Below the pieces are notes generated by a model, which was not told the origin of the DNA, did no database searches, and saw only the letters and a program-made list of their open reading frames with translations. A stretch of 64,000 nucleotides of DNA from Hydrolagus colliei (Eukaryota), in the NCBI GenBank assembly GCA_035084275.1, contig CM068754.1, positions 10,168,001-10,232,000 on the forward strand, in the 5' to 3' direction. The translations under genes and the position numbers were made by a program. Position 1 is the first letter of the stretch. Each line of letters starts with the position of its first letter. Positions 10,841 to 63,329 of this stretch are shown piece by piece.

Positions 10841-11475
10841 TTAGAGGCTGGGGTTGGCTGCCGGCTGCCATTGAACCTTTCCAACTCCCAAAGTCCTCTC
10901 GGTCACTGGCGAGCTGGCGTTTGGCGCTAGACCGTTTTGGGCGATCAACTTGAACGGATTCGTCGCCAGTCTGGAAGACGCGGCCAAGTTGTAGCCGTAC
11001 AACCCGTGAGGGCGACGCACGGAAAAATTGTACAGGTCTTGGGGCATCGGATTCTCTTGAGAAATGGTGCATCGAGGCGGCACGATTTGGAGCTGGGAGA
11101 AGTTAGCGTGAGGCGCCTGTAGCCCGTGTCCGTTGCCGTCTCCGGCTTTCGTAGTCAGTGCGTTCAGCGAAGACAAATAGGGTAAGCGGAACATGAGAGA
11201 CGCCGGGGACCCCTGGGTGCCGAAGATGTCCGACGGTGAAGCGTTGACTCTCACCCGGTCATAGGGCGGGCAGGCAAACCGCGGGGGGACCAGGTTCCTG
11301 CCGGAGGTGTAACACACGGGGAAGTCCACGTTGTACAGGTGGGCGTCTCGACAGCTCATCCCCAGAGCGTTCGCGGTCACATGAAACAAGGGCGGGGAGC
11401 AGGAGGGAGAGATCACCGAGGACAGGGAGCACGGCGTCTCCGCGTAGGCGACTCGCGAGGAGTCCGAACACCTGC
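10841..11475 (-). CDS. TBX22: TBX22 last coding exon
   Basis: Acceptor ttccag| at 11476, in frame with ORF 10841..11416 (SPPLFHV...LYGYNL...WQPAANPSL*). Confidence 0.88.
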
Positions 11476-13333
11476 CTGGAAGTGAAAATCCTACATGAAG
11501 TTAGGTTTGAGTGCGGCGGGGGTTACTCTACAACCCGGAGATTGTAAGCCCGTGGAGATATCGAGGGCTGAAACAAGAACAGGGGTTCGCTGGGGAAACT
11601 CGGCGGGTCAGGCAGCATCCATGGAGAAAAGGAAAATGAGTCAACTTGACTCATTTTCCTTTTCTCCATGGATGCTGCCTGACCCGCCGAGTTTCCCCAG
11701 CGAACCCCTGTTCTTGTTTCAGCCCTTGTGTTTTCAGACTTGTGTTTTTTTTTCAGACGCCCGGCTCCTGTAGTGTTTTATTTTAGATACCAAGGGCTGT
11801 CTGTGCCCACGAAGCCTGTGCGTCGGGGGGTGTTGGTGCATTGTTAACCGAGGACTTGCTTTCAGATTGGACATAACAACAACAACAACGAAATTACACT
11901 TGTATTAGCGCCATCACGTCAGGAGGGCGTCCCAAGGCGCTGGACGGTCACTGCCTCAGACCTCAGCTGAGGGTGGGTGGGGGGGGGGGGGGGATTAGGA
12001 GTTGCCGATGGGTCCATCGAAGAGGAGAGTTTTGAGGGGACACTTGAAGGAGGCCAGACATAAGCGTTTAGTTTGCTAATAATGGCTGTTTGGTGTAGGT
12101 GTGATTGTTATACTGTATTCAGTTGTGGTGAGAGTCTCACGTACCTCTAGTGTGTATATTAAAAGCCTGGAAATCCAGTGTTGGTATCGCAGCTCTCCAA
12201 GGATAGCCGTCCAGGACTCCTTCCAAACTCACCCTGTGTGCAATACAATCTTATTTTAGTGATGGCTTTAACAATCGCTTGTTTTTTTCGGAAGAAAAAT
12301 CAAACCGAATTAAGATGGTACATTTGACAAGCTTTCGTTCTATCGGGGTTTCTAACAGTGACTTTTAAAAAAAAAATTACTGACTGCATTTAACGAAATG
12401 AAAACCATCCCAAGACAGTTGTGATTTGCACAGGCAATAGTTAAAGAAGGGTTGTTTGTAGATGTGCCTTGACGCTGGTGTGAAAACTTTGTGAACCCAA
12501 ATATTTGCAACAACCTGATGAATGATTGCTATCGGCCTGGTGTGGGTATGGAACAGTTGTAAAGAAAGTACCTGTTTCTGCCGGGGTCCCTGAATCCTTT
12601 CGCAAAGGGATTTCTGTCGATTTTCAACCTCGTAATCTACGAACGAGAGGAAATCCGAAGCTCCAAATAAAACCGAGAAGGCTCACGTTATACGAAACAC
12701 TAATGATTTATGAGGGTTAGTCAGTCCCGCGGAAGAACTTCTGAATGTAGTGGCGAGAGCTAAAGCTACCGGAGGCGAGGTGTGACTGTGGAGGGGTTAC
12801 TTTGAGAATCCAAGTGATTTAACAGCAGAATAAATACTTAGTGACAATGATAATCAATCCGTTACTTCACAAAACGACGACTACCTTTGAAAGAGAGACG
12901 AATATTTAACATCAAGGGTGATAAACTGGAGGGGAGGGGGTGAGGGAGACTGTTCTGTGACAAACTTTAATATCAATTGGGAGAGAGTCAACTTGTGTTT
13001 TAATATTAAGGGGGGGGGGGGGGTTGGACCTCGGTTGTGGGTGGGGGGGGTGAGTGTGACTCTTGGAATCTGTGATTTGTTGCTGGTGTTGTTACTACGG
13101 TACCTGTTGGTTCTGGTAAGCTGTCACCGTCGTGAATTCGGTCTCCGGAAAAGCGAACGTTTGTACTCCATCTGCCGGGAGAGGCTGATTTACCGACACG
13201 TTAACACCCGCCTGCTTCAGGATCACATGAAGCCGCGGTTTATACTTGTGCATGGATTGCAGAATAATCTGGAGGGGAAAGGAAACAGGGACTTCACCTA
13301 ATCTCCCGTGTTTATCAAAGTTATGTGTGTATG

Positions 13334-13366
<33 letters not shown>

Positions 13367-16300
13367 GTTTGAAATGAATTAACATAATAATAAATAGATC
13401 AATTCGTAATGAAGTGAGTGTTATCTGAGAAAATGGGACAACTAATTGACACCAATAACATCCCATCAATAATCGGACGCTTAACCAATGAGTCTGTGGT
13501 TTAATCTGTTCAGTTTATATTTGATTACGGTATACACCTGGAAGGCCGAGATATGTGTTTCAAATAAGCCAGTGACTGGTGGAAAGAGATCTGTTCCGCT
13601 ATGAGATTGATGTGGTGCCCAGATCAAACAAATCCTGATGTCGCCGTCTGAACACATACAACGATTAATTGGAATTTTAACCGACGGGAGGATTCACATT
13701 AACACATCAGTCTGCCCAGACACACATCATTTCAAGTGTCGCTCGTGGTTTCAGATTCAAACCAAGCGGCCACATTTAGTGGGTCGTTTTACTGAAGAAT
13801 GTTCTTCAAAGCAAAGCATCGGCAGCAATTAAGTTACACACGCTGGTGTCAAAGGGTTAATTGTGGCAAATAGACAAATCAATCAATCAATCAATGAATC
13901 AATGAATCAATCCTATTGTTTTCTTTCGGTGAGTTCGACTTGTATTGTTGCTAAGATCACGTTTTTGTTAATAAAAAAAACAGAACGAATGCCTACATGT
14001 CCCTTATCATCCATGTCGTTGTTGGTGAGTTTCACTCGGTCGAAACTGACGACCTGTTTCATCCAGGTTTCCCCTGAAGCAGGAGAGTCCGGGTGTACAT
14101 AGAGCCGAGGGCTGAGAGACGCTTGTTCAGTGTTACCAGCCACCATCCACTGAGAGCTGTGATACACGTACCTGCCAACGCCAAACAACAAGTCAGTGAG
14201 TCAACAAGCTTCTTAATTCACTGGGAATTCAAACGGTTAGGAGGGTGGAGATGAGAGAGAGAGCTATATAAAGCCCAAATCTTGAGAGGGTGTGTGTGTG
14301 TGTGAGGCTGGGATGTCACGTTTAGTTTTTTTTTCAGTCGCTCAATCTGCTTTGTTTTGCCTTGAGGTATTCGCGACGACTTTATTTACATTGTTTGCAG
14401 CATTTCCGAGCTCTGTCACCTCGGCGGCAATTGGTTTATTTATAATAATACATTTTCTTTTTGTTTAATTAGAAAAAAACAATGAATGGCTGCAAAGGTA
14501 GCGCTTTGTAGTGTCACAGTTCAAACTGTTGAACCCCTTTTTTAAAATTAATTTCATTCCAATAACTTGAGGGAAATGTATCCCCCCCACCCCCCACACC
14601 ACACACACACACACACAACTACTGAAGGATCTCATACACTTGTTCCCATACATATTGGGACATTTCTGTATCTTAGCTATCAGATGTTTTATATTAATAT
14701 AACATACTGCATTACTCTGCGAGTTCGTATCTAAGAAAATAAGTCGATGGAACCCCAAACTGAGAGAGCTACCAACGGTGGGATTTGGACTAGCCTGGTT
14801 TCACTCTTTTCCAGTAGTTCCCCCACAAATACACAGTCAATTCACTTGACACAGTACATTCTCTGACGCGCTTTGAGGCGACTAGAAGGCGTGAAAAGCG
14901 CTATACCAAATGCAAGGGTGATTGTTATTAATATGATCAGCGTGGGGGTATGTACCTGTATCTCTTGGAATCCACTGGGACAATGTCCATGGCGATATAA
15001 TACTGCTTCGTGAGTTCCAGACCCTTAATTTTCACACGCACTGCAGGAAACATACGCCTGGTACAGAGATGAAGCATCCAGTTAATTTGCTTCTATGTCC
15101 ATCAATCGCCAGCCATACTAACACATGTGTATTGACGGCGAAATGTGTTCAGATCTCATGCATTTTTATTATAAAATGCAATTCCTAGCATCTAAACTGC
15201 TTGGCTATGGTCTAAACGGGTCGTCCGCGTAATCCATTTCTGCCTTTTCTTAAACGGAGAAACGTTTTTAATGGTATCTAACTTCAGTACTATACACTGT
15301 ACGGTATTTAAATACTCGTTTGATATGGGGTAGTTAATATTCCTACGCTCACGGTATTTAAACATATAGCAAACCATAGATTAAATTGACCGACAAGACA
15401 TTGATGGCAATTTATCAAATATAAACGATGAATTAAACTGGAATATTTATTATTATGATTATATTTATGTTGGGAAGGAGAGACGAGTCCCAGACAATGT
15501 AGTAGCCAGCAATGGAGGGCTGCCATGGAAATAGTTAACAAGTACAAGCTATTACATCAGTCAGGTTTGTAGAACAAGGAAACCAATCAATGTCCTTGTC
15601 TGGTGCAAACAAATTGCCCTGAATTGCTTTTATTCTTATTATTACCGTCACCACCATCATCCCAATGAGGTTTCTAAACCCGTACCGAAGTATCCAGGCG
15701 TCGGTCAATAATAAATCGAAACCCTTGTCAAAGCCATCAGTGGAAGGCACTGATTTAACGCTGATTGAATGCAGCACAAGTCTCTGCACGGGTTAACTGG
15801 AGAGTTGTTTTCAGGCGGGTTGATACATACAGGCTGACAGAATGCGTTGCTCACCTGCCAGCTTTGGTAATGATCATTTCAGTTCCAATCTCGTGGAATC
15901 GTTTCCAAAGTTCTGCTCCTTGTAGTTCCACCTGAACCGCCAGTGAAGCTGAGCCGATCCCTGGGCAGTGGGGTGGCGATGGGCAGCTCAGGGCTTTGGC
16001 TCTCTGGCCTCTCGCTTCCCCTGGATACATACAAAATGGGGAAGTATTTATTTCCACAAACAAACAAATAAAAATCCCCCCCAAAAATCCACGTATCGTC
16101 TACTTTTTTATTATTATGATTCTTATATAAATGTGCAAAAAAAAAGAATTGTGGCGTTTGTTTCTCACACACAGCCAGTTCCCTCAGCCCATCCTCTGCT
16201 GTTTATTTTGGCCACTTGTTCCTTCAATAGCAAATATTGGACAGAACGTTAAAAACTAAGGACTCAGTAAAGCACACACGTGCACTCTCCCCCTCTTTCC

Positions 16301-16916
16301 CTCTCTCTCTCTCACACACATCACTGGTTTCTGACAACAGCCATTCATTGTGGCACAGACTTTTTTCTCGAGGAAATGGATCAGCCAGCTTGGCTGAAAG
16401 AGCGAAGTAACTCTGTTTGGTCTTGAATATACAATAGAGCATAGACTTCCTGATGAGGCCAGGTACATTTCATTTACTCTGCTCTGCCTTTGCTATTTGC
16501 TGACTGAATTAATCACCATTTCGATGCCAAATTTAAACGGGACAAAGAGTGAATTGAATGCAGTTTTTAAAAAAAATCTTCATGTGGTTTTTCACTGAAT
16601 TATATCAGTTTGATTTTAAACAGGCCAAATCTGATTGACCTCATCGCTGAAATGCACATCAAGCAAACAGCAACTCGGCTCTAACTCTCTCTCTCTCTCA
16701 CTCCCGGCCAATGCTGTAAGTTACCGACATCAGGAAATATAGTAACTAACCAGATTCCTCCCCCCCTCCCGTGTCCTGGGCAGGATCAGGGGGTGTAAGG
16801 CTTCCCATCGGATGATCCCTCGAAGTTTCATCTTCGTTGTCTTCAAACTTCCTCTTGAGGGATTTCCCGACCAGAGATTCCACTGAGAAAGCGTGAGCTC
16901 GAGAACTCAAAGCCAT
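10841..16916 (-). CDS. TBX22: T-box transcription factor TBX22, 8 coding exons, 520 aa (whole-gene span)
   Basis: Exons 16916-16751, 16020-15855, 15057-14956, 14171-13997, 13268-13104, 12636-12572, 12233-12145 and 11475-10841 join at GT-AG sites in consistent phase to 1563 nt. N-terminus [17 protein letters not shown] (TBX15/18/22 type, EH1 motif); T-box from [32 protein letters not shown] to [39 protein letters not shown] and YPWR..TLDF are TBX22-like; ITM2A synteny agrees. Confidence 0.95.
11564..11726. repeat. Perfect 163-bp inverted repeat (81-bp arms, 1-nt spacer) in the last TBX22 intron
   Basis: agggctgaaacaag...aatgagtcaa C ttgactcatt...cttgtttcagccct; the arm is homologous to 53703-53779. 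Confidence 0.95.
11875..12060 (-). mobile_element. L2 LINE 3' end
   Basis: (CAA)n-aaattacac...acgtcaggagggcgtcccaaggcgctg, reverse complement of the L2 tail. Confidence 0.75.
12145..12233 (-). CDS. TBX22: TBX22 coding exon 7
   Basis: 89 nt, [29 protein letters not shown], acceptor cacag|, donor G|GTACGT, phases fit both neighbours. Confidence 0.88.
12572..12636 (-). CDS. TBX22: TBX22 coding exon 6 (end of T-box)
   Basis: 65 nt, [22 protein letters not shown]. Confidence 0.95.
13104..13268 (-). CDS. TBX22: TBX22 coding exon 5
   Basis: 165 nt, [15 protein letters not shown]...[16 protein letters not shown]. Confidence 0.95.
13997..14171 (-). CDS. TBX22: TBX22 coding exon 4
   Basis: 175 nt, [14 protein letters not shown]...[16 protein letters not shown] boundaries. 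Confidence 0.95.
14790..14930 (+). mobile_element. SINE 3' fragment in a TBX22 intron
   Basis: cacaaatacacagtcaattcacttgacacagtac...gcgctttgaggcg...gtgaaaagcgctata. Confidence 0.75.
14956..15057 (-). CDS. TBX22: TBX22 coding exon 3
   Basis: 102 nt, [34 protein letters not shown], flanked by cag| and |GTACAT. Confidence 0.95.
15855..16020 (-). CDS. TBX22: TBX22 coding exon 2 (start of T-box)
   Basis: Acceptor atccag|, ...[28 protein letters not shown], donor AG|GTGAGC. Confidence 0.92.
16751..16916 (-). CDS. TBX22: TBX22 coding exon 1
   Basis: ATG at 16916, [23 protein letters not shown]...EES, donor G|GTTAGT. Confidence 0.9.
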
Positions 16917-17982: not shown

Positions 17983-18160
17983 NNNNNNNNNNNNNNNNNN
18001 NNNNNNNNNNNNNNNNNNNNNNNNNNNNNNNNNNNNNNNNNNNNNNNNNNNNNNNNNNNNNNNNNNNNNNNNNNNNNNNNNNNNNNNNNNNNNNNNNNNN
18101 NNNNNNNNNNNNNNNNNNNNNNNNNNNNNNNNNNNNNNNNNNNNNNNNNNNNNNNNNNNN
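17983..18160. other. Assembly gap (178 N) about 1 kb upstream of the TBX22 ATG
   Basis: Run of n. Confidence 1.
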
Positions 18161-35628: not shown

Positions 35629-36325
35629 ATAATAATAATCCTTGCATTTGATGTAGTGCCTCATCAAGTCTTCGAGATATCTCAAAGAGCTTCACAGAAT
35701 ATACTGTAAATAATAATAATCCTTTGCATTTGATATAAGGCTTTTCACTTCTAGATGTCTCAAGGTGCTTCACAGAATATACTGTAAAGTGAATTGACTG
35801 TATATTTTGTGTTGGCGAAACGCAGCAACCAATTGTGCACAGCAGTGTCCCACAAACAGTTGTGGATTGAGATGACCAATTTTTTTTGGATGGATTATTA
35901 TCAGGCATGTGGAGTAAGAAAAGCAGTGTAACGTAAGGGAAGGTTTCACCCTGCCTAGAATCGAACCCAGGTTTCTTGCTTGCAAGGCGAGTGCTCTAAT
36001 CACTGAACTACAGGTTTCCTAAAGTGGATTGACTGTATATTTTGTGGGTGAAACACAGCAGCCAATTGTGCACTGCAGTGACCCACACAAACAGTAGTGG
36101 ATTGAAGTGATCAATTTATTATTATTATTATTGTTATATTTGGAGGAATTATTGCCCCCGGAAAATTAATCTGTCAGTTGACTAACAACTGGGTTCCTAT
36201 TTACTGCTAGGTAAATGGAAGTATGTGGAGTAAGGATACATGTGGAATATTTTGTCCTGCCGGGATTTGACCCTGGCCCTCTCACTTGCGAGGCAAGTGC
36301 TCCAACCAATGAGTTACAGGACTCC
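35629..36325 (-). mobile_element. Nested SINEs: short-variant SINE (35711-36019) inserted in a long-variant SINE
   Basis: Two tRNA-like heads (about 35950-36019 and 36255-36325) and two tails; the outer element is interrupted at taaa, which is duplicated at 35707-35710 and 36020-36023. Confidence 0.85.
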
Positions 36326-38724: not shown

Positions 38725-39035
38725 ATAATTATAATCATAATAATAAACGTTGCATTTAATACAGTGTTTTCACATCTTCTAGGTATCTCAAAGTGCTTCA
38801 TAGAATATATACTGTAAACTTAATTTACTGTATGTATGTGGCCGAAATGCGTCAGTCAATTGCCCGCAGCAGTGTCCCACAAACAGTCGTGAATTGAAAT
38901 GACCATTCTTTTTTGAGGTATTATTATCAGGTGTGTGGAGTAAGGAAACTTGCCCAAGGTTTTGCCATGCCTGGAATCAAACCCAGTTCTTTCACTTGTA
39001 AAGCGAATGCTCTAACCAGTGAGCTACAGGACGCC
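38725..39035 (-). mobile_element. Full-length tRNA-derived SINE, short variant
   Basis: Minus strand begins GGCGTCCTGTAGCTCACTGGTTAGAGC (A box)...GGTTTGATTCC (B box), then family body and tail. Confidence 0.88.
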
Positions 39036-40770: not shown

Positions 40771-41944
40771 TGATCAGAGAGGCTGTTGGGTTTGTTGGAT
40801 TGAGCAGGTGAATGCAAGTGCATCAGTGAGCATATTAGTGAACGAGAGAAAAGCCAGCAATTTAGCCTATTCTGAAGCAAATCCAAATTAGTGCAATGGC
40901 ACAGATTACACAGGTCGTAAATATAAATCAACTGTTACCCTGCCACAGCATGAGAAACTATTTAGATGTTACTCATTAGATAACACAACCTGGACTTTGA
41001 AAACCTCGCTGCAGCCTTTAAGCAGAAATGTGGGCCTTTTTTTTTAACATGTTTGTTGACATAACAATCATATTTGTATTTGTAAACTACAGAAAGAAAT
41101 GCCTCGGATCTTTTCTTCACTCAATCTCTGCTCTTTGATGCCTGTGTAAATCATTTGCTTAATTGTTAATTATTAATGTAAATATTAGCCAGATGGAATC
41201 CAGTTCTTTTAATAAATTTTATTATTATTTTTTAAAAAGCAGGAAACCTTTGATTGCACAATATTTGTGCTGGAGTTCTCTAGTTCTGCAACACCATCCA
41301 GTTAAATCGATTTTGTTTCGGATTTATGTTGACCCATAATTCTGTTCTGAGTCAATGAATAACCATCACATATCAAAAGGTCCCACCTCTGGTTTGCAAA
41401 TCCTTGCTCAACTTGAGACTACGCAACTGTTTCAGAAGCACGAAACCACTTTTCAGGTACTATTTTACCAATTTTTAATACATTTTTAGTGGAAATGCTA
41501 CCGAGAGAGGGAAGTTGTAGATAAAACAGCAGCCAAACGTCCCGACCAATATAATGGGAAAACAACTAGAGTATTTAGTTTGTTTCTCAATACGATGCCT
41601 TGAACTAAATACTGCACTTTGGCACCAAAGTGCAAACACTGTTTCAGGCTCTGGATTTGATTTCCTCTCTTAGAGAAACTAATATCATTCTGTGGTAATG
41701 TGCAGAGATATACATGGCTAAGAAGCAATTGGTTGATGGTATTGCAAGATTTAGTCCTATTTTTCTGGGTTAAATACTATCATACTTGTCATATGTAATA
41801 ACTTTGGATGTTTGGGATAACAATTTAGGAGACTGCGGTTCAGAATTTGTGTTAAAACTGGGATCTGCTGCGTTTATTTGCAGATTAAAACATTAAAATA
41901 TTTCTTTTATTTCTCATTCATCAAGATTCAGACTTCACATTACC

Positions 41945-42075
41945 ATGTCTATGGTCTGTTTGGCCGACTTTGAAGCCCACGCTAAAAGGTGTTTACCTAG
42001 AGCTGTGTGGGATTTCTATGCTGGCGGTGCAGATGACTGTGAATCCAGGAACAGGAACTTGAGTGCTTTCAAAAG
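41945..42075 (+). CDS. HAO2: HAO2-like coding exon 1
   Basis: acc[34 protein letters not shown]...SAFKR, donor AG|GTTTGT. Confidence 0.92.
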
Positions 42076-45000
42076 GTTTGTATTTCTGCAGGTATTTATA
42101 CAGATGCTGCCTATTAATATAGGCAGGATCCACAGTAGCTAAGGCTATTAATAAAACAAACACGACAATCAATGATCCCACTTCCTCAGCTGAACAATTG
42201 TTTTATTGTTTATTTTTTTCTGATACGATATGTTTGCTTGAGTTGAACTTACGCATCATTGAAAACATGTCTCCCCATCTATATTCCATTGTAAATCAAA
42301 CTGTTTATATTATTTTTTCTACTTTTTTGTTTAGCTAGTGAGTGCTGATAGTAATAGCCAGGAAACTGGCTTGAAACAATTACCAAGCTTGACCATGTGA
42401 GGGAGCTGAATTTAACATCAAGAGATTCAATTGTTAACAAGAGATGTTTCAGGGATTCTGTTCGATTGTCATGTCAATTTACCTTTGTTACACTATCAAA
42501 ATTGATAGCTGTTGCAAGCCAGTTCTCAACCCGATATCACCTTTAACAAGACGATGCCCAGAAATCAAGAGAAATGGGGAAAGTAAAGCAAACCTAATAA
42601 CATCTCAACTGAACTGTTTTAAACTTTAAACTACGACGACCTTGTCGTGTTTTATTTCAGATTAAAACATTAAAATATTTATTTTTCCTCATTCACCAAG
42701 ATTCAGACTTCACATGATCCATGTCTATGATCTGCTAGAATTTCTACCATCTATAGCAATAGGGAAAATTCAAGCCACCTTTTTAAATGAAGATATCAAG
42801 TTTTAAAAAAACTTGGAAATATAATGCAAGATGTTCTAAAATCCCCATTTAATTATGGAAATATTCTATTACATGCTGATTCACTTTGTGTTGTACATTC
42901 CTGTCGTTCATCACTAGATTCTCAATACAATTACAATACTTGGAAATTATTTGAGGGGGTGGGGGAGAAGATTTGTTGCCTAATTTAAACTGTACTTTTC
43001 TAGAAAGAAATCTGGAAATATTACAGTGACAGGAAAAATTATGTTTGGATGAAGATAATGGACGGTAGGAACAGCATAGGATCAATGAAGTTTCACTGGT
43101 TGTTGGATGAATTTATTCAGAGAATTGTTAGGATTTCCAGTCGCGAGAGTTCAAAATAATGACCCAATTATTTGGGTCATATTGATTTATTGATTGCAAG
43201 CAATTTTAGAATGATAGAATAAAAGAGTAAATAATCATACTACCAGTTCTATGTAGAATACAATGCTGCATTCAGGCTGTTACATCATAAGTCAGGTTCA
43301 GGCTCCTCACAATACTCACTCCTTCTAACTTTCCTTCTAACTTTTCTTCTCTAACTGACCTTTCTTTGCCTGTGAAACAAAACAACTGGAACCATGACCC
43401 ATTCCAGTAGTTCTGGACAACAGTGGCAGGCTGGAGATCTCGGTTTACCCTGACACTCGCCAACTGTTGTAATGAGCCACTCTTTCACTCCTATGTTTAT
43501 ACTTCCCCACCAGCCTTATCATAACTAACTCAGTTATTGGCACGGACCGGTACCCAAGGTTGTCTTAGCGCAGAGGAATGTGCACCTGGTATTTTGTGTA
43601 GACAAGTTTTTTTCTCCCTTTTGCTCAAGGTTGCTGACTATGCCTATGTTGTGGAAAGATTGTTTTAAGGTGCCTGATTAGAACTAACTTTAATTCATTT
43701 TTAATACCTCCATATCCCAACAGAATGGAGTGACTGTTTTAGGTATTCGGCCAGGAGATTTATATTCTGGTTTAAGCATAAATGTCTTATATTAAAAGTT
43801 GGGTTTCTGCATGTCCAGAAAAATCTGATGTACAGGGGATGGAATGATGTAATGTACCCATTAAAAATAAATTTATGACCATAATTCAGTTCAGGAGAAC
43901 CAATGTCCTACTCCAAGAGTAGAGGCTGAACAGGTTATTAATGTTAATAATTTCTTCCATTTTTAATTCATAAAAAGTGTCAGCTTTCTTACTGTTGCCT
44001 TATAGTTGGGAAAGAAGTGCAACTCCAGTGGTACCATTTGCTGACTGGCTGCAGAAATACTACCTGGGCACTGCTAACACGTTGAGGAGTGGAATGGGCT
44101 AAGAGTGGAGAGAGAAAGAGAGAGAAGCTGTCAAGTTCACTCCAACCACATTGAAAAGGCTGATTGCATTTTCTTGACTGCTGCTGGAGGGATTCTAGTT
44201 GGTGTAATTTGGATGCCAGAGACTTTAAAGCAAACAATGACACCAATGGTACCATTTCTTTAACTTGAAGCATATTTATAATTTGATGGTAGTTTATGAG
44301 ATCACCGAGAAGATTATAAGCTAAGACAGTAGTAATATATAATGCTATAATTAGGATTCAAATATTCCCAGAAGGCTGAGAATTTTAAAGAAATACGTTT
44401 TGATTTCCATAATTGCCTTTATTTGTAATATCTGTAGAATAATACAAGTTACAGAGAAGATCTTTTCATGTCGCTTTATTCCAATATTGGTTTATTCATA
44501 AGAATGTTTTTTTTTCAGAATCCACCTGCATCCCCGGGTGTTGAGAGATGTTTCCATGGTAGACACAAGCACAATTATACAGGGTTCTGCTCTCAGCTTT
44601 CCTATAGGAATTGCCCCCACAGGCCTTCACAGCCTGGCCTGGCCTGATGGAGAAGTCAACACTGCCAAAGGTAAGTGACAGACCCTGCCTTCAAATTAAT
44701 TCTGATTTTGTTGATCATTGCAAAAAAAAAGTCCTCAAATTCCACTGTCTTAATTTTTAAAAACAGAACACCATTAAGTCTGAAAATTTAAGAATGCACA
44801 ATATTTTGTAATTTTCTTTAAAATTCAGTATCAGTTTGGAAGCTGTTTCTCTTCAGCTATTTCAGAAAACCAGCTTCTGAATAACACTAGACTGTTTGCA
44901 AAAAAAATCTTTGAACTGTGTGCTAAAAAATAACGTGTTAGATGCACCAATGCATATTTGGATGGTTGTCAATTTTAGACGTTGCTTTTAGATATAATTG

Positions 45001-48000
45001 AACGCATTTGGCAAAGTGTGATATGAGTACAGAGACATCCTACAAATTTTGTCTAGTTGTATACTAATTCTCTTCATCAGACAACGAACTCTTTGCACAA
45101 TGGTTATATTAACAGTAGCTGTAGAGTGACTTTGTATAGTAGTCTTAGCTTTTAGGCATTTTTAAAAAAATCACTGATGCTTCAAGTGCGTTTGGTTATA
45201 TAGAGTAAAACTGTGAATTAGCATTGTTTACATCCACACATGTTGAAAACTGTTCATGACAAAAATAATTGGAAGTTGTGCCTTGCAGCTGCAAAGGCCG
45301 TGAATACGTGCTACATTGTGAGTACATATGCCACATGCTCTGTGGAGGAAATTGCTGCGGTTTCCACCTCTGCCTGCTACTGGTTTCAGCTGTACATTTT
45401 CAAAAGACGTGTGGTAACTGAGCAGCTGGTGAAGCGAGTCAAGTCTCTGGGGTACAAAGCTCTTGTGTTGACTGTGGATTTGCCCTACATTGGCAAGAGA
45501 AGACAGGACATCTTAAACCACTTAAAAATCCCTACCCACCTGGCTCTTAAAAACTTTGAAGTATTTAAGGCAAGTAGATAGAGATCACTCCCAATTCTCA
45601 ATTAACATTTTAAAGTCGTATGATGTAATGGATAATTATTAGTCAGTCTTATCTATGACGTACCATTGGGGAGCTGTGGATCATGAGGTATAGGTTTCAA
45701 CACCCATTGTTTTTCTCATTAGGGAAACAATATATGGTGTACAAATACAACCCTTCTATTCACTTATTCATGCAATAATTTGGCTCTATTTTTACCACCC
45801 CGGATAAACTGTGGAAGTTAAGTTTGTGCAATACAAATGTAACAGACTGATCATAATCAAGATGATACTTTACTGACTGTGGTAGTTTTATCAACTATCT
45901 GACAAGAAACATCCATCATGGTGGGTTTAAAAATCTTGGTGTGATATTTTGCTATTCCTCAAATGGGTAGCTCGGTAAGCAGCAAAATCAATGGCAAGCT
46001 ATGCGGTTTTAGCTGGCTACACTCCAGCAGTACCCCAACCACACTCTGGAGTCACCAAGCCTTGGCTCTTGCCAACCTGTGGCTATTATTTTCTGGAATT
46101 AGTTAAGCAGGATGCATCCCTCCAGGGAGCGAGTGTGCATTGCATTCCAGTTTCAAAAACCTATCCATGTGTAGGTGGGATGCATGGGAATCTCAGGTTG
46201 GTTTGGATACTCTTAAGCATGGCAATGGGTATCTGCATGTGTCAGGGTCGGGGAGGTGGGAATGCGTGGGTGTGGTATTCATCAGGTATCAAGGAAAATT
46301 TACATCTGTGTCACGGGATCCAGAGTGTTCCCTCTAGCGTTCTGATCAGTGCTTTAGATAGCTTAATTCCTCGGTGATTGATTCCATTTGTACTTTACAT
46401 TTTTAGGAAAATCCTTAAGCTAAAAGTTGCAAAAGAAAAGGTTGTAAAAAGCAAAGATGCCATGTTCATACATTACCTTTTATAAAGTGCAACTGCAATA
46501 TCTTTGGGAGATATGGAAGAGTGTGTGAAATATTGATTCAGAGTTCAATATATTTCTCTATTAATGAACTGTCTGTTATATTAGAGACCGTAGCAGAAAT
46601 GACATAAATACTGCATTTTGCAATGAAACGCTAACTATTGTACAGTGAATTTTGCCTTTCCTTAACAAAAAAGTTGGTTATATATTTAATATATATTATT
46701 ATTAATATAGTATTTTAATTGAATTAAAATATATAATCAAAATGAAATAGATTGTCTTAAAATAACACTGACCTATTTCGGGATTTCATGTGACATAAGG
46801 TCTCTAGAGATTAAATCTGGTGCCAGTGACGTGCCCGAAGGACATGACTGAATCTGGTTCCAATTTCTTCATCCACACAGTAGGGCTTGAATATAATAAG
46901 TGTCTGATCAGTGGAGTACTAGGTAACCGTTGCCTGGGAAACCTGTATTTTTGTTGTGTTTTCAACAATGCCATGCGAAAACCAAGGATAACATAAATAT
47001 ATTTATACAATAGTTTTATTGGCAACACTATTGATAGTTTTATTATTTAGGAAGTACTTCCTTGCAAAGATGTTCATATGCATTTTAAATTCTAATCACT
47101 ACTATTTTTATGATTATTTTTCTATGCAATGGCAGAATTCTGATCCACTCATCCACCCAAACCATATCATGCAGTCAATTCGCATTAGAGTACACTCTGT
47201 GAAGCGCTTTGAAACAGATTATATTATATTGCTCACATGCTGCCCCTGTATCGCAGAATGACGTGGATAGTCTTGGCAACAATGGCCTACACACTGATCT
47301 CATAGACCCATCTATTAGCTGGAAGGATATTCAATGGCTGCAATCTCTGACTGACCTTCCAATCATCCTGAAGGGCATCTTGACAAGAGAGGATGCTGAG
47401 CTAGCAGTAAGGCATGGTGTACAAGGAATCATTGTGTCTAATCATGGAGGGCGACAACTTGACGGAGTACATGCAACTGTAAGTTTATAGAATGGATTAT
47501 TTTATTTTCCTTTTAATTGGTTCATTATCTCTTCTTGAGATTACACCTCAGGATGTATAGGCAAAATCCTAGAATAAGTCAAACTACAACAACAACAAAC
47601 AAAAACATTGCACTTATACAATTACCCTACAGCATGTTTGCTTGACTGGAAACAAAGATTGGTTGGTGAAATGATTCCAGATTTTTGAACAGGTTGTGTG
47701 CTTGCACAGATAATTATTTGTTGCAAAAATAGATGTACTTTTTCTTTTACAGATAGGAGTTCTTTCAGAGGTTGTAGAAGCTGTGAAAGGTCGTATTGAA
47801 GTCTATTTGGATGGGGGAATTCGAAGAGGAACTGATGTGCTGATAGCATTAGCACTTGGAGCAAAGTGTGTTTTCCTTGGTCGACCAATAATTTGGGGTT
47901 TGGCGTATAAGGTAACTCAGGCTTACTCTCTCCACATCATCATTTGTGGCCACATTTTCAGATTCTATACCCCTGACCTAACTGCCCTTCCTTTTAAGTC

Positions 48001-50410
48001 CCTCTTTATCTGTCTTGCCTTAAAACATGCTGCTTTGACCAGGACTTATGGTTGTCTATTCCTCCCCGCTTTCCACTTATCCAACTTTATACCTTACCAC
48101 AACTGCTGTTGATGCTTTTTCTTGGTTATCAAATGCAAGGATGATTATTATTATTTATATAACCTGCCATAAGATATACTTGAGTAGGCCAGAGAAGAAC
48201 ACTTTACAGCCAGTTATAGAAATACTTCTATTTACTATGGGAATTACAATGTCAAACATTTTTGTGTTCCAGCGCCTTGGGACGTCCTCCCGACATGAAA
48301 GGCATGCTACAAACGTAATTTTTTTGTTTTTTGTTGTTTTTTTTAAAAAATGCTTTCGTATGCAAATGGACAGCCAATTAATGGATAGTAAAGTTGCCAA
48401 ACAGGTGAATGATCAATTTTATTTGGAGGATTGTTGGCTATGACATGGGAAGAAACACACTTTTCTTTTTTTAAATAGTGCCATGGGATGTTTTACCTGA
48501 ACAGGCAGATGGATCCTCAGTTTAATGTTTGATCCAAAAGGTGGGCCATCTTGATCTTGCAACACTCCACTCAGCACTGTGTTAGTCTGTCAGTTTGGAC
48601 TTTACACTCTAAAAGTCTCAACAAGGGACACAAATCCACAACCATCTGTCCCAGAGAGAGGTTGCTATTAAGTGAGCCAAGACAACAGTTGTCTTCAGTA
48701 TAAACAATATATTTTGTGTTTTGTTTTATATTTAATTCACTGCTAGTTCTCTTCTAGGAATGCCTACTTTGAAGAAGTTTTGCTCTTCTCTCCGACGTGA
48801 CTTTTGAACTTCCCTTTTACCCTGCTGACCTTCTTTGCTATCTGTTTCCCCTCTTGTGTTTGATGATGCACAATTGACCGGTTACCGCTCGATTGTCCAA
48901 AGGTTCGTTAGTCCGAAGCTTCCCCTAACCCTAACCTTTGGACTAATGAACCTTCGGACTATCGCACCAAATGTTCCGCTTAACAAACCTTATTTCATTG
49001 GCGGTTCAGACTATCGAGCGGTAACCATTGTAACCGCCCCGGGTATAGGAAATTTGTGTGTTCGGACCATCGAACCTTCAGACTTATGAACTTTCGGACT
49101 ATCGAGTGCCCCCCCCAATTGACCTGCCTCTTACAGAATTATGTGTTTCATTGGAAACATTAAGCTCTAACATCAACAAAACATCAATGTATTCTGACTC
49201 TGGTAACATTCTCCCAGAGTTGGCAGGATGTAGAATTATGTCCCTGCCAATGATTCTCTATAGCTGGGGGATGAGCAGGTTAAAGTGTTCATTGGAGTAT
49301 CCATGTATTTTCAGCTGCATGTAGTAGTTTCTAAAGTGCATATAACTCCTTTAAACATGTTCCTACAATGATCATTATCTGAGGTAAAATATTATCAAAT
49401 GGAAGAGACCAGCTGAGGAATAACAAAGCCAGAAAATGTGCAAAAAGCACAAACTAGAAATGTACAAAAGGTCAGTCAGTCAATCAGCTGCTGAAAGAGA
49501 AAGAAGGATTCATGTTTCAGGAAGGACGTCAACAGAAATGGGATCATATGTTAATTACAAACTTGTGTATCAGTTTGACTTTCAAAAGAATGTATGAATG
49601 TTCAGATTGCATCAACTTCAGATCAATGGGAAATAAAATATAGTGGAGTCTTACTAGAAAGAAAGACATTGTTTTGCAAATTAAGAATACTGTACTCCTA
49701 ATTTGGGCTAATACCTTCTCATACCTTCTATTTTACACTAGGCTCAAATTAAAGTTCAATGAAAGAAACAAAACTTGTTTAAAGTTCATTTCTCACACTT
49801 TTTAACAGGGCGAAGAAGGAGTCAAAGATGTGCTTCAGACTTTAAAAGATGAGTTTCATACAGCAATGGCTTTATCTGGTATGAATTTTCTACAGATCAA
49901 TTTTTAATAAGCTTTTCAAGATAATTCTTTGTCATTTACTCAAAGTAATAATCCTTGCATTTGCTTAGGCACTTTTGACATCATCTAAGCATCTCAAAGC
50001 GCTTCCCATAATATGCCATATAGTGAATTGACTATATATTTGTGGCAGCCAATTGCGCATGGCAGTGTCACACAAACAGTTGTGGATTTAAATGACCAAT
50101 TTATTATTGGGGTTTTTCAAGGGATTATTAGGCATGTGGAGTTAGGAAACCTGCCCGAGGTTTCGTCCTTGAAAGATGAGTGATTCTGATTCATCTGGGA
50201 TTTTGAAATACAAAATTAAGTTTGTGTATTGTTATACACTTATAAGAGCCCTGGGACGGCCTACCGATGTGAAAGGTAATGTATAAATGTAAGTTTATAT
50301 TGTATTCGTAATATGATTCTCATTTTTCAGTTCATTTTTTTTTCCATATTGCAGGATGCAAAAGTGTCTCTGAGATTGACCGGAGCCTTGTACAGATTGC
50401 AAAGCTTTAA
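41945..50410 (+). CDS. HAO2: Hydroxyacid oxidase 2-like (FMN-dependent 2-hydroxyacid oxidase, peroxisomal), 7 coding exons (whole-gene span)
   Basis: Exons 41945-42075, 44519-44670, 45289-45569 (or -45560), 47257-47478, 47753-47911, 49809-49878 and 50355-50410 join in phase with no stops. Motifs: [63 protein letters not shown]-terminal AKL (PTS1). Orthology to HAO2 versus a paralogue is unresolved (see findings). Confidence 0.93.
44519..44670 (+). CDS. HAO2: HAO2-like coding exon 2
   Basis: 152 nt, [18 protein letters not shown]...[24 protein letters not shown], tttcag| and |GTAAGT. Confidence 0.93.
45289..45569 (+). CDS. HAO2: HAO2-like coding exon 3
   Basis: [22 protein letters not shown]...WFQLY...[12 protein letters not shown]...KNFE(VFK); 3' end either AAG|GCAAGT (45569) or GAA|GTATTT (45560). 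Confidence 0.88.
47257..47478 (+). CDS. HAO2: HAO2-like coding exon 4 (catalytic His)
   Basis: 222 nt, ...[58 protein letters not shown], |GTAAGT. Confidence 0.93.
47753..47911 (+). CDS. HAO2: HAO2-like coding exon 5
   Basis: 159 nt, [53 protein letters not shown]. Confidence 0.94.
48370..48682 (-). mobile_element. Decayed DeuSINE-like element in an HAO2-like intron
   Basis: aatagtgccatgggat...aggcagatggatcctcagtttaatg...cactccactcagcactg; reverse homologue of 420-535. Confidence 0.55.
48880..49106. mobile_element. MITE-like foldback with ggttaccgctcgat inverted ends and internal ttcggactatcgaacc-like units
   Basis: GGTTACCGCTCGAT at 48880 versus ATCGAGCGGTAACC ending at 49026; CCCTAACCCTAAC in the loop. 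Confidence 0.6.
49809..49878 (+). CDS. HAO2: HAO2-like coding exon 6
   Basis: 70 nt, [23 protein letters not shown], taacag| and G|GTATGA. Confidence 0.93.
49945..50170 (-). mobile_element. SINE (5'-truncated) in the last HAO2-like intron
   Basis: Reverse complement of the family body and tail. Confidence 0.82.
50355..50410 (+). CDS. HAO2: HAO2-like last coding exon
   Basis: [18 protein letters not shown], ttgcag| acceptor, PTS1 AKL. Confidence 0.92.

Positions 50411-54143: not shown

Positions 54144-63329
<9,186 letters not shown>

What the first reader, a model, noticed from the sequence alone, without database searches (positions are those of the whole stretch)
41945..50410. Intact HAO2-like oxidase between TBX22 and ITM2A: candidate ohnologue of HAO2 absent from the mammalian locus
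Seen: a complete stop-free 7-exon FMN alpha-hydroxyacid oxidase with PTS1, transcribed divergently from TBX22 and upstream of ITM2A. Established: human HAO2 is at 1p12, upstream of and divergent from TBX15; TBX15, TBX18 and TBX22 are paralogues; human TBX22 and ITM2A are neighbours on Xq21, with no HAO gene between them to my knowledge. Inference: the T-box/HAO linkage predates the vertebrate genome duplications, and this is a TBX22-linked HAO2 paralogue retained in this lineage. It would be a third vertebrate peroxisomal hydroxyacid oxidase, likely auto-annotated simply as HAO2.
Basis: partly seen in the sequence, partly recalled or inferred. Interest (0 to 1): 0.8.

Follow-up and report, generated by a model that had tools for sequence, protein, structure and literature searches.

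The report
Second HAO2 gene of cartilaginous fishes
Chimaeras and many sharks carry an extra, intact copy of the peroxisomal enzyme gene HAO2 beside TBX22, most likely left over from the second vertebrate genome doubling and not seen in the bony-vertebrate records examined.

Summary
Confirmed: an intact seven-coding-exon FMN 2-hydroxyacid oxidase gene (41945-50410, +; 356 aa, ending AKL; one GC donor) lies between TBX22 (minus strand) and an ITM2 gene. The window is probably from a chimaera.

The protein belongs to a distinct 'HAO2-like' clade seen in Callorhinchus and 10 shark species. Eight of these 11 species also have a separate canonical HAO2, only 63-68% identical in the six pairs measured. 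Both copies lie on different contigs in the seven species with contig data. In horn shark this clade's gene shares a chromosome with TBX22.

Trees place the clade as sister to all jawed-vertebrate HAO2 (support 95/77 and 97/94). Formal rejection of a cartilaginous-fish-only duplication is mixed (p 0.011 and 0.20). A published ohnologue table makes TBX22 and TBX15, the neighbour of mammalian HAO2, second-round (2R) sisters.

Best reading: a 2R ohnologue of HAO2 (0.8), absent from the 150 bony-vertebrate records examined and perhaps lost in rays. All catalytic residues are kept; Phe24 and Gly79 suggest bulkier substrates (inference). Databases list it as 'HAO2-like'; I found no paper describing it. 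This is a new member of a known family, following a familiar retention pattern.

The parts
41945..50410 (+). HAO2-paralogue gene, ATG to stop, 7 coding exons, 356 aa
41945..42075 (+). coding exon 1 (carries Phe24, the position of Tyr26 in human HAO1); an AG acceptor-like tract just upstream suggests a non-coding 5' exon (inferred)
44519..44670 (+). coding exon 2 (carries clade-fixed Gly79, the position of Ala81 in human HAO1)
45289..45569 (+). coding exon 3 (Tyr108, Tyr130, Asp158, Arg165); ends at a GC donor
47257..47478 (+). coding exon 4 (end of loop 4, Lys227, SNHGGRQ motif with His251 and Arg254)
47753..47911 (+). coding exon 5 (Asp282, Arg286, Gly305, Arg306; FMN-binding role recalled)
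49809..49878 (+). coding exon 6
50355..50410 (+). coding exon 7, C-terminal AKL (PTS1-type) and stop
10841..16916 (-). TBX22 gene, 8 coding exons, divergent from the oxidase; marks the 'C' copy of the paralogon
54144..63329 (+). ITM2-family gene (ITM2A by synteny and recall), downstream of the oxidase, same strand

Best explanation
ORIGIN. A functional paralogue of HAO2 made by the second round of vertebrate whole-genome duplication. One pre-2R chromosome carried a T-box gene with an HAO gene upstream of it. One daughter became TBX15-(WARS2)-HAO2 and the other TBX22-HAO2-paralogue-ITM2A. The TBX22-linked copy evolved about two to three times faster, was kept in chimaeras and most shark orders, and was lost in bony vertebrates and probably rays (losses inferred from absence in a protein collection).

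MECHANISM. Shown from sequence and a model: an FMN-dependent L-2-hydroxyacid oxidase fold with the full catalytic set (Tyr130, Asp158, Arg165, Lys227, His251, Arg254 = human HAO1 Tyr132, Asp160, Arg167, Lys236, His260, Arg263) and a C-terminal AKL. From established knowledge of the family: it is imported into peroxisomes, His251 acts as base, the 2-hydroxy acid is oxidised to the 2-keto acid on FMN, and O2 reoxidises the flavin, giving H2O2.

SUBSTRATE (inferred, about 0.55). It prefers medium-chain, long-chain or aromatic 2-hydroxy acids over glycolate, because it lacks the HAO1 tryptophan, has Phe24 like rat long-chain oxidase, has Gly79, and has a loop 4 unlike that of shark HAO2.
For: (a) Two clades in the same species, 62.5-67.5% identical in 6 of 6 species compared. 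Contig lengths differ in 7 of 7 species with such data, paralogue vs HAO2: Heterodontus 107.9 vs 126.5 Mb, Carcharodon 173.5 vs 118.5, Cetorhinus 147.1 vs 106.6, Stegostoma 74.9 vs 82.1, Rhincodon 70.8 vs 76.1, Callorhinchus 17.9 vs 81.2, Chiloscyllium punctatum scaffolds 0.64 vs 1.66.
(b) Heterodontus TBX22-like and this clade's gene both lie on a 107,907,199-base contig.
(c) Careful trees: clade 100/99, sister to all jawed-vertebrate HAO2 at 95/77 (36 rows) and 97/94 (26 rows, call 47B). AU test against 'clade plus cartilaginous-fish HAO2': p 0.011. Outgroup-polarised columns 9:1:1 of 200 usable favour the same tree.
(d) PMC8040251 supplement: TBX22 in quartet C, TBX15 in D, TBX18 in A; ITM2A in C, ITM2B in D; TENT5D in C, TENT5C in D. 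The text gives the branching ((A,B),(C,D)).
(e) Gene order TBX15, WARS2, HAO2, HSD3B in human (PMC9394163) and sheep (PMC7278473).
(f) Five of six intron positions coincide with isoform breakpoints of canonical HAO2 records (intron 2 approximately), so it is a DNA-level copy, not a retrocopy.
(g) The six catalytic residues are kept in 11 of 11 clade members; numbering. Model of the Callorhinchus orthologue: pLDDT 91, TM 0.95 to human HAO1.
(h) Callorhinchus has an NP_ RefSeq and two GenBank entries; that these imply cDNA support is recalled.
Against: The AU rejection is not robust: p 0.20 with only amphioxus as outgroup and fast bony rows removed. The ingroup-only test gave p 0.28, but an unrooted tree cannot separate the two hypotheses. 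The clade is fast-evolving (74-75% chimaera-shark identity against 89-92% for HAO2), so long-branch attraction to the outgroup is possible, and most of the nine supporting columns are conservative swaps. In the 72-row quick tree HAO2 monophyly had support of only 38. No lamprey, hagfish, mammalian HAO2 or vertebrate HAO1 sequence was in any tree. Shark HAO2 was not shown to sit beside TBX15. No expression or enzyme data. Phe24 also occurs in some canonical HAO2 (two rays, one lungfish copy, caecilian, several amniotes), so it is a labile marker.
Confidence: 0.8

Rival explanations
1. A duplicate made on the cartilaginous-fish stem, after the split from bony fishes, that moved next to TBX22 and then evolved fast.
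For: Seen only in cartilaginous fishes (21 of 209 named records). Fast rate. AU p 0.20 in one set. It needs no loss in bony vertebrates.
Against: Only 3 columns unite it with cartilaginous-fish HAO2 against bony HAO2, fewer than the 5 uniting it with bony HAO2. AU p 0.011. It needs an intron-keeping copy to land by chance beside the one T-box gene that is the 2R sister of HAO2's own neighbour.
Confidence: 0.08
2. Hidden older paralogy: a tandem pair that predates 2R (or 1R) sat beside the T-box gene, and the C and D chromosomes kept different members. The gene would then be older than a strict 2R ohnologue.
For: It gives the same synteny. The family duplicates locally often: several amphioxus and hemichordate copies, two lungfish copies. 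The stem of the clade is long (0.26-0.28).
Against: The two clades share a long common stem (0.33-0.39, support 100/100) and HAO2's own stem is short (0.08-0.13), which fits a split shortly before jawed vertebrates radiated. It is also less parsimonious.
Confidence: 0.09
3. It is the genome's only HAO2, translocated, or a decaying pseudogene.
For: The canonical HAO2 of this genome was not seen (window only). One non-canonical GC donor. No transcript for this species.
Against: It is 85% identical to the Callorhinchus paralogue and 65% to Callorhinchus HAO2. The frame and the catalytic set are intact across 11 clade members.
Confidence: 0.03

Closest known systems
Cartilaginous-fish 'hydroxyacid oxidase 2-like' records (Callorhinchus LOC103177796 / NP_001279280.1 / A0A4W3HIR5; Heterodontus XP_067903865.1; Carcharodon XP_041051903.1; Rhincodon XP_048461474.1)
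   Same: Orthologues: 85% and 75-79% identical, one clade at 100/99, same Phe24, Gly79 and AKL.
   Different: Automatic names only; no description as a separate gene was found.
HAO2 / long-chain 2-hydroxyacid oxidase (rat LCHAO, PDB 1TB3 and 3SGZ; jawed-vertebrate HAO2)
   Same: Best solved relative by sequence (423 vs 390 bits for HAO1, Callorhinchus orthologue as query). No HAO1 tryptophan. Colinear 356 aa. Five of six intron positions shown shared.
   Different: Paralogue, not orthologue: 60-66% identity to the canonical HAO2 compared, against 70-93% among them. Linked to TBX22 rather than TBX15. Eleven clade-fixed differences, Phe24/Gly79 where shark HAO2 has Tyr/Ala, and a divergent loop 4.
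HAO1 / glycolate oxidase (human, PDB 2RDU, 6GMB)
   Same: Same fold (TM 0.95) and catalytic residues; single exons 3 and 4 score slightly higher against HAO1 than against rat HAO2.
   Different: Lacks Trp110 and Tyr26, has a shorter loop 4, about 48% identity.
Ohnologues kept in some vertebrate lineages and lost in others (for example CHST16, PMC7353957; Kazald quartet, PMC12955574; search listings only)
   Same: Same kind of event: a genome-duplication copy hidden behind a '-like' name.
   Different: A different gene family; here the retention seems limited to chimaeras and sharks.

Membership tests
FMN-dependent L-2-hydroxyacid oxidase family (Pfam FMN_dh) | Profile match above the curated cut-off | tested here: met
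   85.2 and 96.1 bits vs 24.9 for exons 3 and 4
FMN-dependent L-2-hydroxyacid oxidase family (Pfam FMN_dh) | Beta8/alpha8 barrel fold | tested here: met
   Model of the 85%-identical Callorhinchus orthologue, not of the window protein: pLDDT 91, TM 0.95 to 6GMB
FMN-dependent L-2-hydroxyacid oxidase family (Pfam FMN_dh) | Catalytic Tyr132, Asp160, Arg167, Lys236, His260, Arg263 (human HAO1 numbers) | tested here: met
   Y130, D158, R165, K227, H251, R254 in 11 of 11 clade members (mapping; list in PMC7912158, except Asp160, recalled)
FMN-dependent L-2-hydroxyacid oxidase family (Pfam FMN_dh) | FMN-dependent oxidation of a 2-hydroxy acid with H2O2 release | not testable with these tools
   needs an enzyme assay
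Peroxisomal matrix enzymes (PTS1) | C-terminal S/A/C-K/R-L tripeptide | tested here: met
   AKL in 11 of 11 clade members; the consensus is recalled and import was not tested
HAO1 (glycolate oxidase) | Trp110 and Tyr26 at the active site | tested here: not met
   Tyr108 and Phe24; features from PMC10153336 and PMC9114433
HAO2 subfamily (broad) | One clade with jawed-vertebrate HAO2 to the exclusion of invertebrate HAOs | tested here: met
   100/100; no vertebrate HAO1 in the trees
HAO2 orthologue (strict) | Nests among jawed-vertebrate HAO2 and is linked to TBX15/WARS2 | tested here: not met
   Sister clade; neighbour is TBX22; separate HAO2 in 8 of 11 species
2R ohnologue of HAO2 | The two copies lie in paralogous segments that are 2R sisters | tested here: met
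   TBX22 (C) and TBX15 (D); HAO2 beside TBX15 shown for human and sheep only
2R ohnologue of HAO2 | Duplication older than the cartilaginous/bony fish split | tested here: inconclusive
   Best trees agree (95/77, 97/94) and columns run 9:1:1, but AU p is 0.011 and 0.20
2R ohnologue of HAO2 | Duplication younger than the cyclostome split | not tested
   No lamprey or hagfish sequence was listed or 20

The most novel reading that the evidence does not exclude
A third, unrecognised vertebrate peroxisomal 2-hydroxyacid oxidase, born at 2R and neofunctionalised. It changed its substrate pocket (Tyr to Phe24, Ala to Gly79, new loop 4) towards long-chain or aromatic substrates in cartilaginous fishes, in parallel with the same changes in several amniote and caecilian HAO2, while shark and fish HAO2 kept a Tyr/Ala pocket. 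The shark pair would then show that 'long-chain' activity is a derived, repeatedly evolved state, and would give a natural handle on the still unknown physiological substrate of HAO2.
Probability: 0.3. Interest if true: 0.6.

Novelty: new member of a known kind. Interest (0 to 1): 0.42.

Why it matters
It raises the likely ancestral jawed-vertebrate set of peroxisomal 2-hydroxyacid oxidases from two to three, and it corrects orthology: shark 'HAO2-like' records are not HAO2. It adds a micro-synteny marker (T-box gene with HAO upstream) to the 1p12/Xq21 paralogon. The physiological substrate of human HAO2 is stated as unknown (PMC9114433), and a pair of paralogues in one animal with different pocket residues is a ready comparison. 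The impact is moderate: retention of hidden ohnologues in cartilaginous fishes is a familiar pattern, the proteins are already in databases, and nothing suggests new chemistry. The name 'HAO3' should be avoided, because PDB 1TB3 uses 'Hydroxyacid oxidase 3' for the rat long-chain enzyme.

Tried and rejected
- GT donor at 45573 for intron 3: breaks the frame.
- Retrocopy: rejected, because intron positions are shared.
- HAO1 identity, suggested by single-exon PDB scores: rejected by the full-length score and pocket residues.
- The T-box gene being TBX15 or TBX18: not supported; the best hit is named TBX22-like.
- Lungfish second copy and caecilian HAO2 as bony-vertebrate members of the clade (both carry Phe24): rejected; both are closer to canonical HAO2 and group with it.
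- Ingroup-only AU test: uninformative by design.
- Atlas searches with the TBX22 last exon and an ITM2 exon gave nothing usable.
- The 72-row careful tree did not finish; only the quick tree was read.
- Literature: HAO2+TBX22 0 papers; hydroxyacid oxidase+shark+whole genome duplication 0; HAO2+Callorhinchus 0; hydroxyacid oxidase+elephant shark 0; HAO2+shark 6, none relevant by title; two broad searches, 20 listed of 385 and 20 of 532, none containing HAO2.
- Supplements without a HAO2 hit: PMC8040251 (file cut when stored; the paper's curated set is of three- and four-member families), PMC8455134 (12 of 24 files; 62), PMC10115646 (3 files; 64), PMC8302630 (4 of 5 files; 65). The supplement of PMC11979771 could not be read. 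Unseen supplements and subscription papers may list the pair.
- Unchecked: vertebrate genome sequence outside the window (no such collection on hand) and metagenome and viral contig collections. Eleven unnamed vertebrate-range hits were left out of the classification and the trees.

Full report
1. Observation. The gene is real. Seven coding exons from 41945 to 50410 on the + strand join into 356 codons ending in AKL. Intron 3 has a GC donor, the choice that makes the protein gap-free against its Callorhinchus orthologue and Mustelus HAO2. Exons 3 and 4 match Pfam FMN_dh far above cut-off. A T-box gene runs on the minus strand from 16916 to 10841 and an ITM2 gene on the plus strand from 54144 to 63329. 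The T-box gene's last exon finds Heterodontus 'TBX22-like' as its only strong hit, and that protein aligns to eight exons of the window gene. The ITM2A name is recalled and fits synteny; it was not tested by sequence.

2. Relatives. Exon 3 found Callorhinchus A0A4W3HIR5 at 81% and five shark 'HAO2-like' clusters at 72-76%, then a drop to 65% or less (best 120 of 1047 listed). Cluster look-ups extended this group to Callorhinchus and 10 shark species. A search with ray HAO2 and look-ups showed a second, canonical HAO2 in 8 of these 11 species, on a contig of different length in all 7 with such data. Of 209 named vertebrate records (11 unnamed hits left out), 21 are closer to the window's clade, all from chimaera or sharks. 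The other 188 are canonical: 38 cartilaginous, including eight ray and skate species and Mustelus, and 150 bony (split counted from the listed names). These lists are capped and hold no mammal, so absence is suggestive, not shown. The window protein is sister to the Callorhinchus one (85%, 99/96), so the window probably comes from another chimaera.

3. Age. With amphioxus, hemichordate and other invertebrate outgroups, the careful trees give the clade 100/99 and make it sister to all jawed-vertebrate HAO2: 95/77 with 36 rows and 97/94 with 26 rows. The 72-row quick tree left this node open (38). Forcing the clade together with cartilaginous-fish HAO2 was rejected in the 36-row set (p 0.011) but not in the 26-row set (p 0.20; call 47B). 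The unrooted test (p 0.28; call 47A) cannot tell the hypotheses apart. Outgroup-polarised columns favour the old duplication 9:1:1 of 200 usable, mostly by conservative swaps. The clade evolves about two to three times faster than HAO2, so long-branch pull is a real caveat. No cyclostome, mammalian HAO2 or vertebrate HAO1 was in the trees. Phylogeny alone is favourable but not decisive.

4. Synteny, the independent line. In PMC8040251 (abstract, passages and supplement rows seen) TBX22 is in quartet C and TBX15 in D of one paralogon, with TBX18 in A. ITM2A/ITM2B and TENT5D/TENT5C are likewise C/D, and C and D split at the second duplication. TBX22 and ITM2A lie 36-654 kb apart on one chromosome in all 7 bony species of that table; here their start codons are 37 kb apart. 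Mammalian HAO2 follows TBX15 and WARS2 in human (PMC9394163, table passage) and sheep (PMC7278473, table passage). That the human genes are divergent is recalled. In horn shark, TBX22-like and the clade's gene are both on a 107,907,199-base contig, while HAO2 is on a 126,457,832-base one. Five of six intron positions match isoform breakpoints in canonical HAO2 records. An intron-keeping copy beside the 2R sister of HAO2's neighbour is what genome duplication predicts and would be a rare accident otherwise.

5. How it works. Tyr130, Asp158, Arg165, Lys227, His251 and Arg254 match the human HAO1 catalytic residues (mapping; residue list in PMC7912158, passages, Asp160 recalled) and are kept in 11 of 11 clade members. 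A model of the Callorhinchus orthologue gives the family barrel (pLDDT 91; TM 0.95 to 6GMB). [quoted passage not shown]

6. Substrate (inference). It lacks the HAO1-specific Trp110. It has Phe at the Tyr26 position, as rat long-chain oxidase does (PMC10153336, passages). It has Gly at the Ala81 position, where that paper links smaller residues to mandelate oxidation. Shark and most fish HAO2 keep Tyr and Ala there, whereas caecilian and several amniote HAO2 show Phe and Gly. A shift to bulkier substrates is therefore likely but untested.

7. Comparison and novelty. It is a member of the FMN hydroxyacid oxidase family and of the broad HAO2 subfamily. It is neither HAO1 nor an orthologue of HAO2. 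The proteins are in public databases as 'HAO2-like' or LOC103177796. Seven searches and four supplement searches (partial coverage, and unreadable) found no description of it as a separate gene. Subscription journals were not searchable. Jones et al. 2000 on HAOX1-3 was seen only as a reference title.

8. Verdict. Observation confirmed; interpretation supported, narrowed to a 2R origin. Confidence 0.8 for a 2R ohnologue. Novelty: new member of a known kind. Interest 0.42: a clean and apparently undescribed orthology finding with a testable enzymology angle, but of a familiar evolutionary type.

Noticed in passing
window 42649-42735: A roughly 90-base, 84-89% identical copy of the region around the oxidase start codon (41872-41958) sits in intron 1; homology ends about four codons after the ATG and the frame then stops. 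Probably a small local duplication; it could act as a decoy acceptor.
   Followed up: yes
window 45569-45571: Intron 3 uses a GC donor. Pristiophorus and one Cetorhinus record read Ala right after the same Phe-Lys, which hints that the GC donor is conserved in sharks and sometimes mis-modelled.
   Followed up: partly
window 35946-36017, 36252-36323, 38962-39033 (minus): Three low-scoring tRNA-like matches (36-43 bits), probably tRNA-derived SINE heads.
   Followed up: no
window 11480-11780: A stretch upstream of the last TBX22 exon recurs nearly identically in inverted orientation (the same peptide appears on both strands), suggesting a local inverted duplication or an assembly artefact.
   Followed up: no
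window 54436-55207: C-rich tandem repeat in ITM2 intron 1 giving long proline-rich open frames in all three phases; probably non-coding.
   Followed up: no
window 17983-18160: Assembly gap of 178 N upstream of TBX22.
   Followed up: no
P0060 and P0167 (Protopterus XP_043927424-6); P0162, P0165, P0173, P0174 (Antennarius): Lineage-specific extra HAO2 copies in lungfish and frogfish, all of the canonical type; the second lungfish copy also carries Phe24.
   Followed up: partly
PMC8040251 supplement, gar LG17 and LG7: ITM2B-TBX15-TENT5C (29.2, 30.6, 30.9 Mb) and ITM2A-TBX22-TENT5D (44.91, 44.95, 44.99 Mb) have the same order in gar. ITM2 and the T-box genes come from different pre-1R chromosomes that fused before 2R, so the oxidase sits near an old fusion junction.
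   Followed up: partly
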